NCBI RefSeq assembly: GCF_009914755.1
Contig: NC_060936.1
Source of the DNA: the human T2T-CHM13v2.0 reference genome, Homo sapiens
Length of the DNA: 64,000 bases
Strand: one strand, 5' to 3'
Below the pieces are notes generated by a model. It saw only the letters and a program-made list of their open reading frames with translations. It did not search any database and was not told the DNA's origin. The position numbers were made by a program, and so were the translations under genes. Below, piece after piece: positions 2,571 to 53,503 of this stretch (its first letter is position 1; every line of letters begins with the position of its first letter).

Positions 2571-3875
<1,305 letters not shown>

Positions 3876-10869: not shown

Positions 10870-12230
10870 ACAGGGCCGGCGTCGGTCAAGGTCAATTGGC
10901 AGGTGAGTTGACAGCGCCGCCACTAATCGATGAAAACGCCCCCCGCGAGCACCCAGCTGCTCATGGCCTCCGGAAGCGGACGTAGGGCGGGTGGGGTACA
11001 GCTCCTAAGGAGAAACGGAACCGCAGGCACCGTCCCTCTCCCGCTGCAGCCTGAGGAACGCGTTCCGAGGAACCCCTAGCCACAAGTCAGGACCGCGTAC
11101 AAGATGGCGGCGCGTCACGTGGGCAGCGCGGTGACGCAGGACGGCGGCCCGCGCGGAGGCAGCGCCATAGCCTACCCCAAACGCACACTAGTGCTCAGTT
11201 TTGCCCCCCTCCCCTCCCCCGCCCCCGCCCCCGCCCCCAGTCTTGTGTAGATCATGCCGCCAGTAGCGGCCCTGACTGCCGAGGAAACGGTAGCTTAGGA
11301 CAGTTGGCTGTTAAGTGACACTGATTCTCCCCGCCCCGCCTGACCCCCGAGAAGGAGGCTTGTCCCCCGCTGCGTGAGGGGGTGGGGAAGTGGGTAGTGA
11401 ATTCGGATCTACCTGGGAGGGGGGAGTGGAAGTTCCCGCCCCGGAGAGCGGCGAGGCGGCAGCCACAGGTAAGTGGGGGGCGGGGAGGGACGTGCCCCGT
11501 GGCCCGGGCGGGGAAGGACGCGGGAACGTGGCGCCGGCGGGGACGCAGCGCGGGTCGCGCGCCTGGTGGGGGTCGCGCGCGGTGGTGGCGGTGGGGGAGG
11601 GGCGCAGCGGCAGGGGGAGGGGCCGCCCGCGCTTCCGGCCTCCGCGCCTCGGTGCAGAGCTGCGCTGCGCCCTTCCAGTCGTGCGTCTCCTCCTTTCCCT
11701 CGCCCCCAAATAAAAGTAAAGCCCGAAACCGCCCGCCGCGGGGTGGCTTTCGCCTCAGAAGCCGCCCTTTGCAGTCGCAGGCGCTAGCTCTCCGTGGGAG
11801 GTCTCGAGGTTGGGCCCGGAGCCGGGCGGAGGGCGGCGCGGATATGGCCTCGGCGCGGTGTCCGCCGAGCGGAGCCCGGGTCTGGTTAACCCCGCGACAG
11901 GGTCCTCGAAGCGCGTCGGCGCTGGCGACCCTGAGGGAAGAGGCGCGCCCCTTACCCTCCTGGAGCTTGCAGTCTAGCGGGCAACCGACGCACGGGCATT
12001 GCGCACGCCCCAGACAGTCCTGGAGAGATGCGCCTGGCAGCGGAGACAGAGTGGGGACAGTAGGCGGCTTTACCCCTGGCTAGGAATGACACAAGGGCGT
12101 CTGTACCCTTTGGGATGGGCGACCCAGCCGAGGGTGACTTTCTCTTTGATCTTGTATGTCAAAAAACGAAGCCTGGCATTTCTCACTTTGATCGACGCCG
12201 TGCAGCTGGCGGCTGAATCGCTTTGAAATG
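10870..12230 (+). promoter_or_regulatory. ATF1: CpG island / ATF1 promoter
   Basis: Dense CpG, very GC-rich, repeat-free. YY1 motif CAAGATGGCGGC (11100-11111), half-CRE CGTCA (11113-11117) overlapping E-box CACGTG (11116-11121), half-CRE TGACG (11132-11136), tandem GC boxes (CCCCCG)n at ~11216-11238. Boundaries approximate. Confidence 0.92.
11245..11468 (+). other. ATF1: ATF1 non-coding exon 1 (5' UTR); 5' end approximate
   Basis: Perfect donor CAG|GTAAGT at 11468/11469 inside the CpG island, downstream of the GC boxes. The TSS cannot be read from sequence. Confidence 0.85.
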
Positions 12231-26700: not shown

Positions 26701-27306
26701 AGCCCTCTCTCTTTTTTTTTTTTTTGGCCTTTCCAGGTAACCTTTAAAAACATTAAATTCTGTCTAAATCTTTTACCAGCTTGTTAGTGGTTCTCTCCCT
26801 ATTTGCCGTATTTGATCTCTCATAGCTCATTTATTCTCATTCTTACCTAGCCTACATATCCTGAAGTTGATTATCTAAGTTTTCTAGAACTTATTTAGAA
26901 CCTCCTTAGGTATAGTTTTATTTATTTGTTCAACTTTTACTCAGTAAATTCTCTATATAAAAAACTATATGTACACTTAGAAACTTCCCTAGACTAGAGA
27001 CAGATATGTTTGTGTCCATAGACAGGAGGACTGTCATCATTCTTCAATGGGATAACGTTTGCAAACTTAGTCATCATAATTTATGTTTATATGTGCCTTT
27101 TATTAAACTTAAACATGTTTTTGTGGGCCAAAATTCAAAAAATTTAAAGAAAATGCACAGTCCCCTTTCTATCTCTATACCATTGCTACCAGTTCTTTTC
27201 CATTGAGGCAACTAAATGATCAATTTTTATATGATTCTATAGTATACTGTAAACATTCTGTATCATATTTAATTTTAACGGACTTTTTTCCCCCTTATAG
27301 TTGATT

Positions 27307-27399
27307 ATGGAAGATTCCCACAAGAGTACCACGTCAGAGACAGCACCTCAACCTGGTTCAGCAGTTCAGGGAGCTCACATTTCTCATATTGCTCAACAG
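27307..27399 (+). CDS. ATF1: ATF1 exon 2 coding part (aa 1-31; exon starts 27301)
   Basis: Acceptor ttttttcccccttatag|TTGATT, strong Kozak attATGg; translates MEDSHKSTTSETAPQPGSAVQGAHISHIAQQ; donor CAG|gtaagg; phase 0. Confidence 0.98.
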
Positions 27400-33354: not shown

Positions 33355-35085
<1,731 letters not shown>

Positions 35086-38288: not shown

Positions 38289-39554
38289 GTTCTTAGTGGC
38301 TGGATAAATTTTATACAGAATTTCATGACCCTAGGCATTTTGAGGGATGATGAGACTGGGGTTTGTTTAATCTAGTCTTGGGATGAGGAAAAGAACTTTC
38401 AGTGAAAGAAGAAAGGGAACAGGAAGGCTGGGTGCGGTGGCTCACGCCTGTAATCCTAGCACTTTGGGAGGCGGAGGTGGGCGGATCACCTGAGGTCAGG
38501 AGTTCGAGACCAGCCTGGCCAACATGGGGAAACCCCGTCTCTACTAAAAATACAAAAATTAGCTGGGCGTGGTCACGCATGCCTGTAATCCCAGCTACTC
38601 TGGAGGCTGAGGTAGGAGAATCGTTTGAACCCAGGGGTGGAGGTTGCAGTGAGTCTAGATCGTGCTACTTCACTTCAGCCTGGGAAGGAGTGAAACTCAG
38701 TCTCAAAAAAAAAAAAAGAAAAACAGGGAAAGCAGTATTCTTGGAGCCCAATGTGAAGAAGGAGAACAGGGGAGCAGGAAGGAAGCTTACTTTCAAGTCC
38801 TGAGAAGTAGTCCAGGATTTTATTTTGTGATTTAAATCCAAGAGTAATGGTATGGACCAGAGTAGTCCAGAGGAAGGCATGAGATCTCTGTTAACTGAAA
38901 ATATTTGAGAAAGCTTTTTGGAAGAGGTAGGACCTGAGGTGAGCCTGGAGGGATGATGAGTGGACTTTTCTTAGTTTAGCATTTTATCATGGTATTTCCA
39001 TGAAACCGCATCTGATTTCAACAGAAATAAATTACAATTTCATGATTCAGTCATTTACTTGAAATATATATATATATTTTTTCAAGATGCTGCCCGAAGT
39101 TGGTGTTTCACTCACTTTTTGTCTCTTGGTTTCTTGGTTAGTTTTCAACCATATCTCTTCAGAATAGCATGTGCTAAAGATTCTCCATGTTTTTGCACAA
39201 TCAGTTCCTCTGCCTAAAATACCTTCCAGTCCCCTAACTCCTGCCCCTCCATACATACCCTCAGGTAATTGTTAATTATTCAAAACCCAGATGAAATAAC
39301 ACCCTTTCTTTGCTCCCACAGAACAGTACTTTGTAATTTTCCTCTATTATAACTCTTACTCTATTTGTTATAGTTAGTTTGTACTCTCAATCCCTAGTTC
39401 AGCCTCTGGTCAATAGAAGGTACCTAATGTTTGGTTAATGATGCGATTAAATATAATCAGCTCTGAAATGTGTTTCCAGTGTTAAGAACTCAGCTATCTT
39501 ATGTGCATAGGTACAATATATATTTTGTTAATTGAATTTGTATTTGTTCTATTG

Positions 39555-39680
39555 ATGTCATTAAATGGATCTGCGCCAGTGACAATTATACGTCTTCCTG
39601 GAGAGCAAGTACAGATTCAGGGGGTCATCCAGACAGCCCAGTCTTCTGTAATTCACCCACCACATGTGCAAATGATACAG
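39555..39680 (+). pseudogene. Vestigial ATF1 exon homologous to the CREB1/CREM Q1 exon
   Basis: 42 open codons MSLNGSAPVTIIRLPGEQVQIQGVIQTAQSSVIHPPHVQMIQ align with CREB1 ..SSAPTVTLVQLPNGQTVQVHGVIQAAQPSVIQSPQVQTVQ (recalled). Correct position (before the KID exon) and phase 0/0. Flanks are ttctattg| and |aaattt instead of AG/GT. Confidence 0.88.
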
Positions 39681-40667
39681 AAATTTGAAGACTTAGTGGT
39701 CGAGAGTTGGAACTTTTATACCCTGAGTCTTCAGATACATTTCAGTTGCTGTACCTATAATATTATAAACCAAGATAAAGTTGTCTTACAAATTAGACTG
39801 CAGACCAAATCAGGCAAATAGAAAAGTTTTAGAATTTCTAGTTTCATGTATATAATACCTAGTGAAAATAGAAGACAATTTTAGGGAAAGTTATTGCTTA
39901 TGATTTAAGGAAATGAGGGACTTTTTTTTTTTAAAGGGAAAGCACCCTTTTATCCCAGGTATTTTCTATATGCTTTATGGAGTTAGTACCTACCTACCAC
40001 ATGCTTTATGGAGGTCAAATAAAAGAGTTCTCTTGTAGTAGAGGAAAGTTCTTATTTGTATTTATCTACCTTCATATTAACACCTTACAAAAGTACGAAA
40101 GAAAGAGCCATCCTAGATTCCTTTTCTTTCTACTTTTCCCATTTTATAGTCCCAGAATACCTTTGGTCATCTCTCGTTTTTAGAAGCAGCTCTCCTAGAA
40201 GAAAAGCTATATTCCTCCTTTCTTCTCCTGATTATGGCAATGTTGTAAAAACTAGAGCTGCATCTTTATGTGGTACTCCCATGTGAAAGGAGGTGGCTGC
40301 ATGGATTTTTTTAGTGTTTATATGGAAATTTTAGTCTTATTTGCTGGTGCTGTTATTAAAGATAAATTTTTGATTTTAATTACAAGTAATTCCTTAGTTT
40401 TACAATTTATTTTCTTAAGTTCAGTGGAAGGCTTTGGAGTAAGCTTAGGAACAGACAGTGTAGTTAAAGAATTAGATTAGAAATGAAGTATTTTATGGCC
40501 AGGTGCGGTGGCTCATACCTGTAATCCCAGCACTTTGGGATGCTGAGGTGGGCGGATCACGAGGTCAGGAGTTCGAGACCAGCCTGGCCAACATGGTGAA
40601 ACCCCATCTCTACTAAAAAATACAAAAATGAGCAAGGCATGGTGGCAGGTGCCTGTAATTCCAGCTA

Positions 40668-40784
<117 letters not shown>

Positions 40785-41080
40785 TCAAAAAAAAAAAAAA
40801 AAATTTATGATGCTTGAGGAAAAGAAAAGTGACAGATTTTTCTTAAATAATTATTGGTTATTATTTCTTAATTATTATTGGGTTATGACTAATTCTTTTC
40901 TGTATAATGATATAGATTTAATATGAAATATAAATGAGTAGTTATATACTAGAACTCATTTTTGAAGGAAATAACATATAAAAGAAGCCTCTCTGGAAAT
41001 TTCATGTCTAAATAGTTTAGGGGAAGGCTTTCTATAGATAGTAACTAATGTGGAGAATTGATTTCTTATGTCCCTTCTAA

Positions 41081-41314
<234 letters not shown>

Positions 41315-41613
41315 TAGCCAGGATGTTCTCAATCTCCTGACCTCGTGATCCACCCACCTCGGCCTCCCAAAGTGCTGGGATTACAGGCGTGAGCCACCGC
41401 GCCTGGCCTGGGTTATTTTATTTTTAAAAATTAAGATGAAGTCGGCCAGGCACAGTGGCTCACACTTGCAATCCCAGCACTTTGGGAGGCTGAGGCAGGT
41501 GGATCATGAGGTCAGGAGTTTGAGACCAGCCTGACCAACATGGTGAAACCCCATCTCTACTAAAAATACAAAAATTAGCTGGGCGTGGTGGCACGTGGCT
41601 GTAATCCCAGCTA

Positions 41614-41737
<124 letters not shown>

Positions 41738-43067
41738 TCAGATGAAGTCGGATATCACAATCTAACTTTGGATAAATGTTGGAAAGTTTTAATACGCTTA
41801 AAAAATTGAGGCCAGACATGGTGACCCATACCTGTAATCCCAGCACTTTGGGAGGCCTGCTTGAGCCCAGGAGTTTGACACCAGCCAGGGTAACATAATG
41901 ATACCCTGTCAGAATAAAAAAAAATGAATTAGCTGGGCATGGTGGTGTGCACCTGTAATCCTAGCTACTCAGGAGGCTCAGGCTGGAAGATTGCTTGAGC
42001 CCAGGAAGGCGACGCTACAGTGAGCTGTCATTGCACCACTGCACTTCAGCCTGGGTGACAGAGTGAGACCCTGTCTCAAAAATAAAAAAATTAAAAATAT
42101 TTAAAAAAAAATTGAAAACAACTTGTTTTCTCAATTGTAAAATATTGCTATAACTTGCATATTATATTGATGTAGTTTATAAAAATTAACATTGTATGCA
42201 TGCCAAGTGTTGCATGTATTAACTTGTGAAATGAGATAAAATTGAATCATACAGATTTTAAAATGGCATATATTTATACCTGCCATTGCCAGTGACCTCC
42301 ACCTTGCTAAATCGAATGGTCTGTTCTCAGTCTTTATTTTATCTCAGCTTGTAAACAGCATTGGACATGGTTGATCATTCTTTTCTCCTCAGTATGCTGT
42401 CTTCACTAGTTTTCCATGGACAGCTCAATCATTTGGTTCTCTTCTTTACTGGTGACTCCTTAGTCTCATTTGCTGGTTCCTCCTCTTCATCCAGTCTCTT
42501 AGTGTTCCTGAGGTTAGTCCTCAGTCCTCTTCTATTTACCCCTATGAGCTCATCCAGTCTCATGGCTTTAAGGACTCTAAAAAGCTAGACCTCCAAAATT
42601 TATGTATCTAGCCCAGACCTCTTCCCAGACCTACAGGCTTGTATATTTAATATTCGTCTCAATGTCAGCAGTTGAATATATAACAGGTTTTTCAAACTTA
42701 GCATGTCAGGTAGATTAGTAATAAAACAACACTTTTAAGTAATGTGCATCAGTGTAGAAATAGGGTGGAGAATGACATCAGAGCCTGGTCTTTTTAACTC
42801 TGGTAAAATAGTACTGCTTCATTTGGGGGACAGACTTTATTCTCAGCTCTGGGCCTGCTATATTTGATATTCCTTTAATAGGTTGGGCTCCTGGAATAAA
42901 CTTTCTCATTTTTCCTTTTCCTTTTGTTCCTTTCTTTTAGACTTTAGATTTAATGTACAAATGAATTGGAGTGGCAGGAGACAGATCATTTTTTTCTAAA
43001 AGTAAAAATTCAGTTGTTTCTTTTCCCACCTGCATTGTTCATCATGTTAATGCCAGTTCTTTTTTAG

Positions 43068-43168
43068 GTATCATCTTTATCAGAAAGTGAGGAGTCCCAG
43101 GACTCATCCGACAGCATAGGCTCCTCACAGAAAGCCCACGGGATCCTAGCACGGCGCCCATCTTACAG
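43068..43168 (+). CDS. ATF1: ATF1 exon 3 (kinase-inducible domain, RRPS63 PKA site)
   Basis: tttttag| VSSLSESEESQDSSDSIGSSQKAHGILARRPSY(R) |gtgagt; 101 nt. Confidence 0.98.
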
Positions 43169-43513: not shown

Positions 43514-52432
<8,919 letters not shown>

Positions 52433-52681: not shown

Positions 52682-53503
52682 TTACTCCAGCCTAGGTGAC
52701 AGAGTGAGACCCTGTCTGTCTCAAAAAAAAAAAAAAAAAAAAACCTTTTGTGATTCTTAACCCATTGTGACCAAATGGTTCTTAGGTAGGGAATGTCTAT
52801 GTAGTAAGTCTCCTTATTAATATTTTCAAGCATGAATAATTAGTTCTTTCCAGTGTGGTTCTTACAGACATTTGCAGGGTTACCATGTTTTCCTTCCTTA
52901 TGAACACTCCCATCTTTACACTGAATTTGGAGTTTTCAGGTCTTGCTCTTAAGTCAGATATCAAAAGAAAGACTGAGAAGCAGACTTGGTGGCCAATTAT
53001 TTGCATTACAGTGTTGAGAAAAAAAATAAAGCCAGGCACAGTGGCTCACATCTGTAATCCCAGCACTTTGGGAGGCCCAGGTGGGCAGATCACCTGAGGT
53101 CGGGAGTTCAACACCAGCCTGGCCAACATGGTGAAACCCCGTCTCCACTAACAATACAAAAATTAGCCGGGTGTGGTGGCGCACGCCTGTAATCCCAGCT
53201 ACTCAGGAGGCTGAGGCAGGAGAATTGCTCGAACCTGGGAGGCAGAGGTTGCATTGAGCCGAGATTGCACCACTGACTCCAGCTTGGGCAACAAAAGCGA
53301 AACTGTCTCAAAGAAAAAAAAAAAAAAGAAAAAAATAATTGCTAGTAGATGTTTTTTCCTAAATCATTTAGCATTTACCAACTGTCCAGACCAAAGGTCA
53401 TTTTCAGCTAGGAAAGTTCTGATTTCAACCTCTCCATTGGCCCATACGCAGCACAACTTATCCTGTTCCCAAGTACTCATTGAAGAACTTGTTTACTTGG
53501 CTG

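What the first reader, a model, noticed from the sequence alone, without database searches (positions are those of the whole stretch)
39555..39680. Fossil Q1 activation-domain exon inside ATF1 intron 2
Seen: a repeat-free, stop-free 126-nt frame MSLNGSAPVTIIRLPGEQVQIQGVIQTAQSSVIHPPHVQMIQ between exons 2 and 3. It is phase 0/0, so inclusion would add 42 aa in frame. It has a T-rich tract upstream, but the acceptor reads TG (ttctattg|) and the donor reads AA (CAG|aaattt). Known: CREB1 and CREM have a Q1 glutamine-rich exon (..APTVTLVQLPNGQTVQVHGVIQAAQPSVIQSPQVQTVQ) upstream of the KID exon, and human ATF1 is described as lacking Q1. Inference: ATF1 ancestrally had Q1 and lost it by splice-site mutation rather than deletion. 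The intact frame and good similarity suggest a recent, lineage-specific loss or continued constraint, so other vertebrates may still make a Q1-containing ATF1.
Basis: partly seen in the sequence, partly recalled or inferred. Interest (0 to 1): 0.88.

Follow-up and report, generated by a model that had tools for sequence, protein, structure and literature searches.

The report
Dead Q1 exon in human ATF1
An intron of the human ATF1 gene holds the barely decayed remains of a coding exon that most other vertebrates still splice into ATF1, so the textbook "ATF1 lacks the Q1 domain" describes a loss seen in apes and not a property of the gene family.

Summary
Window 39555-39680 encodes the quoted 42-aa peptide. 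It is homologous to the Q1 exons of CREB1 and CREM and far closer to a Q1 exon spliced between exons 2 and 3 in annotated ATF1 proteins of birds, reptiles, amphibians, a fish, a monotreme, a marsupial and 20 non-primate placental clusters.

New evidence comes from the human genome itself. The processed pseudogene ATF1P1 on chr6 carries exon 2, a 120-nt Q1 and exon 3 joined without introns. An ancestral ATF1 mRNA therefore did include the exon.

The acceptor reads TG. Human, chimpanzee and gibbon models all read through the acceptor, so it was lost before those apes split.

The human peptide departs from the placental consensus at 5 of 40 residues, against 2 of 238 in the rest of ATF1 (p = 8e-4). 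That indicates relaxed constraint.

Nothing in print was found. This is a solid, modestly surprising case of recent exon death.

The parts
39555..39674 (+). Relic of the 120-nt placental-type ATF1 Q1 exon (40 codons, open)
   Evidence: Translation. Colinear with the Q1 block of retrocopy ATF1P1, which abuts exon 2 and exon 3 exactly. Same 40-aa unit lies between exon 2 and exon 3 in 15 of 20 non-primate placental ATF1 representatives.
39675..39680 (+). Last two codons of the older 126-nt form of the exon. 39675-76 is the placental proximal donor position and reads AT in human.
   Evidence: Birds, reptiles, marsupial, monotreme and one rodent (P0063) include these two codons. The CREB1 and CREM exons end at the homologous CAG followed by GT. 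The gibbon model has Val here, which is a GT-initial codon; human and chimpanzee have Ile.
39553..39554 (+). Former acceptor position, reads TG (no AG)
   Evidence: The human, chimpanzee and gibbon models all translate Leu-Leu-Met across this point, which excludes an AG there.
39681..39697 (+). 15-nt extension (5 codons) ending at an intact GT donor at 39696-97
   Evidence: Exon end 39695 of XM_054372109.1. Sequence. The same 5-residue extension is used in seal and dolphin models that carry exon 2 upstream, and in the three ape models.
38689..39695 (+). Alternative first exon of RefSeq Gnomon model XM_054372109.1 (protein isoform X3, P0076). CDS starts at ATG 39501.
   Evidence: It is the only one of 29 ATF1 transcripts that overlaps the relic. 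Its 5' end lies inside a masked Alu tail (38400-38731).
27301..27399 (+). ATF1 coding exon 2, the upstream partner of the exon in other species and in ATF1P1
43068..43168 (+). ATF1 exon 3 (start of the KID region), the downstream partner

Best explanation
Window 39555-39680 is the orthologue of the Q1 (glutamine-rich, N-terminal activation region) exon of ATF1. The exon is shared with the paralogues CREB1 and CREM, so it most likely predates the family's duplication (inference). It is still spliced between coding exon 2 and the KID exon in annotated ATF1 of most tetrapod groups, including many placentals.

In placentals the exon is usually 120 nt. It uses a donor inside the penultimate codon of the older 126-nt form, with alternative donors 6 nt and 21 nt further on.

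On the lineage to humans the exon was still spliced when the retrocopy ATF1P1 was made. Later the acceptor AG was lost; this state is shared by human, chimpanzee and gibbon. The proximal donor was then lost in human and chimpanzee. Since then the segment has drifted without constraint but has not yet acquired a stop or frameshift.

Shown: the homology, the position, the phase, the splice-site states, the spliced retrocopy, the orthologous annotated proteins and the excess amino-acid change.

Inferred: the order and dates of the events, that the proteins predicted in other species are really made, and that the human segment contributes no meaningful protein today.
For: - Peptide and splice-site bases.
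- Genome-wide search: 4 of 4 hits are this site, ATF1P1, CREB1 and CREM.
- CREB1 and CREM exons are 147 nt, flanked by AG and GT, in the same position relative to the KID exon.
- 7 of 7 candidates matched (10 unnamed left out). Among them are bat and mole-rat ATF1 fragments that read exon 2, Q1, exon 3.
- 110 of 115 candidates had E <= 0.01 (14 unnamed left out), spanning birds, crocodilians, turtles, squamates, tuatara, amphibians, one fish, echidna, an opossum, xenarthrans, bats, cetaceans, horse family, goat, carnivores, rodents and 4 primates.
- 80 of 110 have the exon-2 end directly before Q1. Among 20 non-primate placental representatives, 17 carry exon 2 upstream. Junction types are 15 proximal donor, 1 at the 126-nt end and 4 extended.
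- Retrocopy: exon 1 part, exon 2, Q1, and exons 3 to 7 are colinear and intronless on chr6. Exon 2, Q1 and exon 3 occupy positions 2421-2519, 2520-2639 and 2640-2740 of the reverse-complemented L006.
- The Q1 block differs from the parent at 16 of 120 nt, similar to the pooled canonical coding exons (97 of 795).
- Polarised with a bat sequence: 5 nt changes on the parent lineage (all amino-acid changing), 8 on the pseudogene, 3 synonymous unpolarised and 1 codon changed in both.
- Relaxed constraint: human differs from the consensus of 12 non-primate placentals at 5 of 40 Q1 residues against 2 of 238 from exon 3 onward, Fisher p = 8e-4. Four of the five sites are invariant in 12 of 12.
- None of the 26 curated RefSeq transcripts includes the segment.
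Against: - One RefSeq predicted transcript (XM_054372109.1) does include the whole relic in frame through the GT at 39696, and matching models exist for chimpanzee and gibbon. Some transcription and splicing from this segment may therefore persist. I could not see any RNA evidence.
- The proteins from other species are almost all automatic predictions. I saw no transcript data for them. The Xenopus tropicalis entry carries an NP_ accession in its listed name.
- The protein database is clustered at 90% identity, so I cannot tell which primates, or whether mouse and rat, sit inside the placental clusters. No muroid and no non-catarrhine primate name appeared among the representatives.
- The acceptor state outside apes was not read at nucleotide level, because no non-human vertebrate genome is available here.
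- The Q1 block's divergence from ATF1P1 is no higher than that of constrained exons. With 120 nt this cannot separate a loss about 25 My ago from a somewhat older one.
Confidence: 0.87

Rival explanations
1. The segment is not dead in humans. It has been converted from an internal cassette exon into the 3' part of an alternative first exon. Transcription would start in intron 2, translation at ATG 39501 or at the conserved ATG 39555, and splicing would run from the old alternative donor at 39696 to exon 3. The product would be a Q1-containing ATF1 (RefSeq isoform X3).
For: - XM_054372109.1 and its protein P0076 exist, with equivalents in chimpanzee and gibbon.
- The frame is open for 111 codons.
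- The 39696 donor position is also used in seal and dolphin models.
- 19 of 110 ATF1 proteins from other species start at the Q1 Met, so that ATG may be an old start codon.
Against: - Five of 40 residues changed at sites that are otherwise near-invariant in placentals, including a Pro to Arg change, which points to relaxed constraint.
- None of the 26 curated transcripts contains the segment.
- The model's 5' end falls in an Alu A-rich tail. That is what unspliced or internally primed RNA would give (inference).
- The donor matches the consensus only at +1 to +3 (consensus from recall).
- The predicted N-terminus is a hydrophobic read-through of former intron.
- Open frames of this length are common in the window: 51 ORFs of at least 90 aa.
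Confidence: 0.1
2. The segment is a copied or retroposed fragment of CREB1 or CREM that landed in the ATF1 intron, not an ATF1 exon.
For: It is homologous to the CREB1 and CREM Q1 exons.
Against: - Protein identity is only 57% to CREB1 and 40% to CREM, and the segment is 7 codons shorter. Identity to bat ATF1 Q1 is 85%.
- It sits at the syntenic position and in the same phase.
- The same ATF1-type sequence is spliced into ATF1 in many species.
- It is present in the ATF1 retrocopy.
Confidence: 0.01
3. The exon was never used in placental ATF1, and the placental models are annotation artefacts produced by homology to CREB1 or to bird ATF1.
For: Nearly all placental entries are automatic predictions, and I saw no RNA evidence for them.
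Against: - ATF1P1 in the human genome is a physical record of an mRNA with exon 2, Q1 and exon 3 joined at exactly the junctions the placental models use.
- The 40-aa peptide is identical in bats, a dolphin and an anteater, and differs by 1 to 4 residues in the other 8 of the 12 placental representatives compared. This is purifying selection that an unused intron segment would not show.
Confidence: 0.02

Closest known systems
Q1 exon of CREB1 (chr2) and CREM (chr10)
   Same: Homologous peptide with 15 invariant columns across the three. Same place in the gene, upstream of the KID exon. Same phase 0/0. The same exon end at a CAG, followed by GT in CREB1 and CREM.
   Different: The ATF1 version is 42 (or 40) codons against 49. 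Protein identity is 57% and 40%. In human it has no acceptor AG and no GT at either ancestral donor position.
Q1 exon of ATF1 in other vertebrates (annotated proteins, e.g. P0065 Myotis isoform X1, P0031 cormorant, P0037 alligator, P0048 echidna, P0072 Xenopus)
   Same: Orthologous. It shares the same flanking exons and is 85% identical to the bat peptide.
   Different: Those genes are predicted to splice it. The human copy cannot be spliced as an internal exon, and it carries 5 of 40 lineage-specific replacements.
Processed pseudogenes as fossils of past splice forms (general concept, recalled; I read no paper on it here)
   Same: ATF1P1 preserves a splice form that the parent gene no longer makes.
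   Different: Here the preserved form contains an exon since inactivated in the parent, and the RefSeq ATF1P1 annotation (chr6:94099259-94100051) does not cover the Q1 part (chr6:94100362-94100481).
Lineage-specific exon death by splice-site mutation (pseudoexons in general; recalled category)
   Same: Intact sequence, dead splice sites, relaxed constraint and absence from curated transcripts.
   Different: The lost exon encodes a named region whose absence is treated as a defining trait of the human protein (passage in PMC4810002).

Membership tests
Q1 exon of the CREB/CREM/ATF1 family | Sequence homology to the CREB1 and CREM Q1 exons | tested here: met
   E 0.002 to CREB1 in a whole-genome search, 57% and 40% identity, 15 invariant columns.
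Q1 exon of the CREB/CREM/ATF1 family | Position between the N-terminal coding exon and the KID exon, phase 0/0 | tested here: met
   coordinates. for the paralogues (147-nt exons).
Q1 exon of the CREB/CREM/ATF1 family | Working splice sites (AG acceptor, GT donor) so that it is an exon | tested here: not met
   Human reads TG at 39553-54, AT at 39675-76 and AA at 39681-82. Only the distal GT at 39696 remains.
Q1 exon of the CREB/CREM/ATF1 family | Contributes to transcriptional activation | not testable with these tools
   Only review statements about CREB Q1 were seen (passages).
Orthologous ATF1 Q1 exon | Spliced between exon 2 and exon 3 in ATF1 of other species | tested here: met
   80 of 110 proteins have the exon-2 end directly before it; 17 of 20 non-primate placental representatives do. 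These are predicted proteins, not transcripts.
Orthologous ATF1 Q1 exon | Was spliced in the human ancestry | tested here: met
   The ATF1P1 retrocopy has exon 2, Q1 and exon 3 abutting exactly.
Decayed exon (pseudoexon) | Relaxed selective constraint relative to the rest of the gene | tested here: met
   5 of 40 against 2 of 238 departures from the placental consensus, Fisher p = 8e-4.
Decayed exon (pseudoexon) | Absent from mature transcripts | tested here: inconclusive
   Absent from 26 of 26 curated transcripts but present in 1 of 3 Gnomon models. No RNA-seq is available here.
Processed pseudogene (ATF1P1) | Intronless, colinear copy of the mRNA with disabling changes | tested here: met
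   Seven exon blocks in order at 79-92% identity. There is a stop at Q1 codon 5.
Processed pseudogene (ATF1P1) | Poly(A) tail and target-site duplications | tested here: inconclusive
   The match to the 3'UTR ends at window-equivalent 67843, where L1-like sequence follows. No tail was identified.

The most novel reading that the evidence does not exclude
Apes did not simply lose Q1. The exon was re-plumbed: after the acceptor died, an intronic start and the old distal donor at 39696 kept a low-level Q1-containing ATF1 (isoform X3), translated from the conserved Met at 39555 or from the ape-specific upstream ATG at 39501. Humans would then make a CREB-like ATF1 in some tissue that nobody has looked for. 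Separately, most placental mammals make Q1-plus ATF1, so experiments on human ATF1 would miss an isoform class that is normal elsewhere.
Probability: 0.1. Interest if true: 0.7.

Novelty: new member of a known kind. Interest (0 to 1): 0.5.

Why it matters
Reviews state that ATF1 differs from CREB and CREM by lacking Q1 (passage in PMC4810002). The evidence here says this difference is not ancestral. The ATF1 gene of most vertebrates, and of many placentals, is annotated with a Q1 exon, and the human gene carries its corpse.

This has three consequences:
- The domain architecture of the family becomes Q1-KID-Q2-bZIP for all three paralogues.
- Q1-plus against Q1-minus ATF1 isoforms in other mammals become a natural experiment on what Q1 does.
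- Results on ATF1 may not transfer between species that keep the exon and species that lost it.

It is also a clean teaching case. A retrocopy preserves a splice form that its parent gene can no longer make, which independently supports the direction of the change (loss, not gain).

The practical weight is modest. Q1 is described as a secondary, basal activation region (passages), and human ATF1 works without it.

Tried and rejected
- Openness of the frame as evidence. Rejected: 51 ORFs of at least 90 aa occur in the window, and a handful of neutral changes would rarely close 42 codons (inference).
- CREB1 or CREM fragment insertion. Rejected.
- Dating the loss from parent-retrocopy divergence. 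The Q1 block (16 of 120) does not differ from the canonical exons (97 of 795). With so few sites this only says the parent copy was not neutral for the whole time since retroposition. No calibrated date could be derived, and the ages in the report rest on recalled substitution rates and split times.
- Reading the acceptor or donor in non-human genomes. Not possible, because no vertebrate genome other than the human reference is reachable. I used predicted proteins as proxies.
- The langur protein P0095. It proved to be an ab initio chain of intronic pieces within the ATF1 locus. I used it only for the Q1 residues and the Q1 to exon 3 junction, not as evidence of a real isoform.
- A possible homologue of the CREB1 alpha exon after the relic. 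The sea otter extension matches the CREB1 alpha peptide at 7 of 9 residues, but E is 0.27 and no separate human match was found. Left unresolved.
- The roughly 86-nt block between exons 6 and 7 of ATF1P1. It has no match in the parent locus, only chance 10-15-mers. Unexplained.
- Literature. Six searches were run and passages were read in five papers. I found the statement that ATF-1 lacks Q1, but nothing on a relic exon, on Q1-containing ATF1 in other species, or on Q1 in ATF1P1 (4 papers name ATF1P1; from their titles and abstracts they are GWAS or genetic-association studies and I did not open them). Subscription journals and supplementary files were not searched, so an older report could exist.
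- The third protein search, structure prediction, the Atlas search and RNA tools were not used. They would not have answered the open questions.

Full report
**1. What is there**

- The segment lies in unmasked sequence. The nearest masked repeats are 38400-38731 and 40491-40881.
- It sits in the intron between ATF1 coding exon 2 (27301-27399; CDS from 27307, 93 nt) and exon 3 (43068-43168) of the MANE-type transcript NM_005171.5. A 126-nt or 120-nt insert would therefore stay in frame.
- The open frame is longer than reported: 39486-39821, with an ATG ORF of 106 aa from 39501. This is not evidence in itself, because the window contains 51 ORFs of at least 90 aa.

**2. Homology**

A six-frame search of the whole human reference with the peptide returned four places:

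| Place | Identity | E-value |
|---|---|---|
| The site itself | - | - |
| chr6:94100359-94100481, minus strand | 68% | 8e-11 |
| CREB1, chr2:208034252-208034371 | 61% | 0.002 |
| CREM, chr10:35204460-35204579 | 44% | 0.28 |

The CREB1 and CREM hits are 147-nt exons bounded by AG and GT. In a three-way protein alignment the ATF1 segment is 57% and 40% identical to them, with 15 invariant columns and 7 fewer codons near the N-terminal end (DNA alignment). The segment is therefore a diverged paralogue of the Q1 exon at the syntenic place and not a recent copy of CREB1 or CREM.

**3. Other vertebrates splice this exon into ATF1**

The protein word search only sees proteins of 0.55 to 1.75 times the query length. 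I therefore queried with the 111-codon open frame, scoring only residues 24-65.
- 7 of 7 candidates matched; 10 unnamed candidates were left out.
- A fruit-bat ATF1 fragment (P0001, 85% identity, E 2e-13) and a mole-rat fragment (P0002) read exon-2 end, Q1, exon-3 start.

I then used a 191-aa bird fragment (P0004, residues 1-40) to reach full-length proteins.
- 110 of 115 candidates had E <= 0.01; 14 unnamed candidates were left out.
- Nearly all are named ATF-1. The groups represented are:
  - many birds (clusters of 196, 84, 71 and 52 members), alligator, turtles, lizards and snakes, tuatara, frogs, salamanders, caecilians and one flatfish;
  - echidna and an opossum;
  - among placentals: anteater, armadillo, sloth, bats, sperm whale, a dolphin, donkey, goat, seals, bear, sea otter, beaver, guinea pig, porcupine, pocket gopher and naked mole-rat.
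- Of the 110 stored proteins, 80 have the exon-2-type end directly before the Q1 start, 19 begin at the Q1 Met and 11 do neither.

**4. Exon ends in placentals**

Among the 20 non-primate placental representatives:
- 17 carry exon 2 upstream.
- 15 join Q1 to exon 3 after residue 40.
- 1 (porcupine) joins after residue 42, as birds, reptiles, marsupial and monotreme do.
- 4 (goat, dolphin, monk seal, sea otter) run on through a further 5 or more residues.

The usual placental exon is thus 120 nt, equal to window 39555-39674. Its donor is the GT that begins the penultimate codon of the older 126-nt form.

In human that position (39675-76) reads AT. The older position (39681-82) reads AA. The distal one (39696-97) still reads GT.

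**5. An independent witness in the human genome**

The chr6 hit lies just 5' of the annotated processed pseudogene ATF1P1 (chr6:94099259-94100051, minus strand). BLASTN and per-exon alignment of the chr6 locus against the ATF1 locus show the following blocks in order and without introns.

| Block | Window coordinates | Identity |
|---|---|---|
| Exon 1, first 91 nt | 11262-11352 | 79% |
| Exon 2 | 27301-27399 | 91.9% |
| Q1 segment | 39555-39673 | 89.0% gapped; 16 of 120 mismatches ungapped |
| Exon 3 | 43068-43168 | 87.1% |
| Exon 4 | - | 88.2% |
| Exon 5 | - | 88.3% |
| Exon 6 | - | 88.6% |
| Last-exon CDS | - | 83.2% |
| About 0.9 kb of 3'UTR | - | 85.5% |

In the reverse-complemented locus, exon 2 occupies 2421-2519, Q1 occupies 2520-2639 and exon 3 occupies 2640-2740, so the three abut exactly. 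The Q1 block is 120 nt with the placental junction.

An ATF1 mRNA containing Q1 was therefore reverse-transcribed into the germ line of a human ancestor. The RefSeq ATF1P1 annotation omits this 5' part. The copy is dead: it has a stop at Q1 codon 5 and an Alu inserted at the start of the last exon.

**6. When and how the exon died**

RefSeq-type models for human (P0076), chimpanzee (P0060) and gibbon (P0059) all start upstream in the former intron and translate Leu-Leu-Met across the acceptor position. No Leu codon ends in AG, so all three lack the acceptor.

| Character | Human | Chimpanzee | Gibbon | Langur (P0095) |
|---|---|---|---|---|
| Position 12 | Ile | Ile | Ile | Val |
| Position 13 | Arg | Arg | Arg | Pro |
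| Position 21 | Ile | Ile | Val | Val |
| Position 40 | Met | Leu | Met | Thr |
| Position 41 | Ile (donor reads AT) | Ile | Val (GT-initial codon) | Q1 joins exon 3 after residue 40 |
| Position 4 | Asn | Arg | Arg | not read |

The langur 'hypothetical protein' P0095 is an ab initio chain of pieces of the ATF1 locus. Apart from the residues above, it has two changes of its own.

By parsimony the acceptor was lost before the gibbon and great-ape split, and the proximal donor was lost later. Several replacements post-date the Old World monkey and ape split. Whether monkeys still have the acceptor is unknown.

**7. Constraint**

The 40-residue peptide is identical in two bats, a dolphin and an anteater, and differs at 1 to 4 residues in the other eight placental representatives compared.

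Human differs from the consensus of those 12 at 5 of 40 residues, four of them at sites invariant in 12 of 12. From exon 3 onward it differs at 2 of 238 (Fisher exact p = 8e-4, odds ratio 17).

Polarising the 17 parent-retrocopy base differences in the codon table with the bat peptide gives:
- 5 changes on the parent lineage, all amino-acid changing;
- 8 on the retrocopy;
- 3 synonymous and unassigned;
- 1 codon changed on both.

The relic is drifting. The intact frame reflects youth and not selection (inference). The Q1 block's overall divergence from ATF1P1 (13%) matches that of the constrained exons (12.2%, 97 of 795). This fits an exon that stayed under constraint for a good part of the time since retroposition. 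With 120 sites this is only suggestive.

From recalled neutral rates, 12-16% divergence puts ATF1P1 at several tens of millions of years. I did not calibrate this.

**8.

Of 29 annotated ATF1 transcripts (26 curated, 3 Gnomon), one overlaps the relic: XM_054372109.1. It has a first exon at 38689-39695, a CDS from 39501, and splices from 39695 to 43068. Its protein is in public databases as ATF-1 isoform X3 (P0076).
- Its 5' end sits in the A-rich tail of an Alu.
- Its donor matches the consensus at only three intron positions (consensus recalled).
- None of the curated transcripts supports it.

I therefore rate a functional human Q1-ATF1 as unlikely (about 0.1) but not excluded. No RNA data were available.

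**9. Literature**

[quoted passage not shown] Two others describe Q1 as a basal or auxiliary activation region (passages in PMC11333461 and PMC12060161).

Six full-text searches were run. They turned up no paper describing a Q1 relic in ATF1, Q1-containing ATF1 in other species, or the content of ATF1P1. The four papers that name ATF1P1 look, from their titles and abstracts, like GWAS or genetic-association studies; I did not open them. Subscription journals and supplements were not covered.

**10. Verdict**

- the placental exon is 120 nt, with a proximal donor that reads AT in human;
- the loss is shared by apes and was stepwise;
- a predicted isoform already carries the segment through a surviving distal donor.

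This is a new, well-documented instance of a known process, exon death by splice-site decay. It affects a named domain whose absence is usually presented as intrinsic to ATF1.

Noticed in passing
chr6:94098204-94100672 (L006; not in the window): The ATF1P1 retrocopy is about 2.5 kb and runs from the NM_005171 exon-1 start through the 3'UTR. RefSeq annotates only chr6:94099259-94100051. It contains an Alu with a 12-13-nt target duplication at the start of the last exon, and L1-like sequence where the 3'UTR match stops.
   Followed up: partly
L006 reverse complement 3214-3299 (chr6, between the exon 6 and exon 7 blocks of ATF1P1): A block of about 86 nt has no match anywhere in the present ATF1 locus, only chance 10-15-mers. 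It could be a lost alternative exon or a later insertion.
   Followed up: partly
window 11262-11352 versus ATF1P1: In the retrocopy, exon 1 ends at about window 11352 and then joins exon 2. The annotated exon-1 donors are at 11309 and 11468, and no GT is present at 11353 today.
   Followed up: no
window 39681-39734; L007 about 1116-1160 (CREB1): The five codons after the relic, and the longer extensions in sea otter and goat ATF1 models, resemble the CREB1 alpha-exon peptide, which lies about 750 nt downstream of the CREB1 Q1 exon (7 of 9 residues for the otter, E 0.27). ATF1 may once have had an alpha-like exon or extension. This is not significant on its own.
   Followed up: partly
window 39555-39557: The first codon of the Q1 exon is Met in almost all vertebrate ATF1 proteins, and 19 of 110 proteins start there, including the Xenopus tropicalis entry with an NP_ accession. 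It may double as an alternative start codon when exon 2 is skipped.
   Followed up: no
window 38689 (start of XM_054372109.1): The predicted transcript start falls in the A-rich tail of a masked Alu (38400-38731). This suggests the model's first exon is built from intronic or internally primed RNA and not from a real promoter.
   Followed up: no
window 34485-34559, 44315-44383, 46832-46903, 48569-48630, 52828-52953: These intronic stretches match pieces of the langur 'hypothetical protein' P0095 at 83-100% identity. That database entry is an ab initio chain of intron fragments around a real Q1 and exon 3.
   Followed up: yes
window 39564-39566: Codon 4 differs from the retrocopy and from all other species by two adjacent bases (Arg to Asn) and is human-only among the three ape models. 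It could be a dinucleotide change or a reference-specific allele. No population data were available.
   Followed up: no
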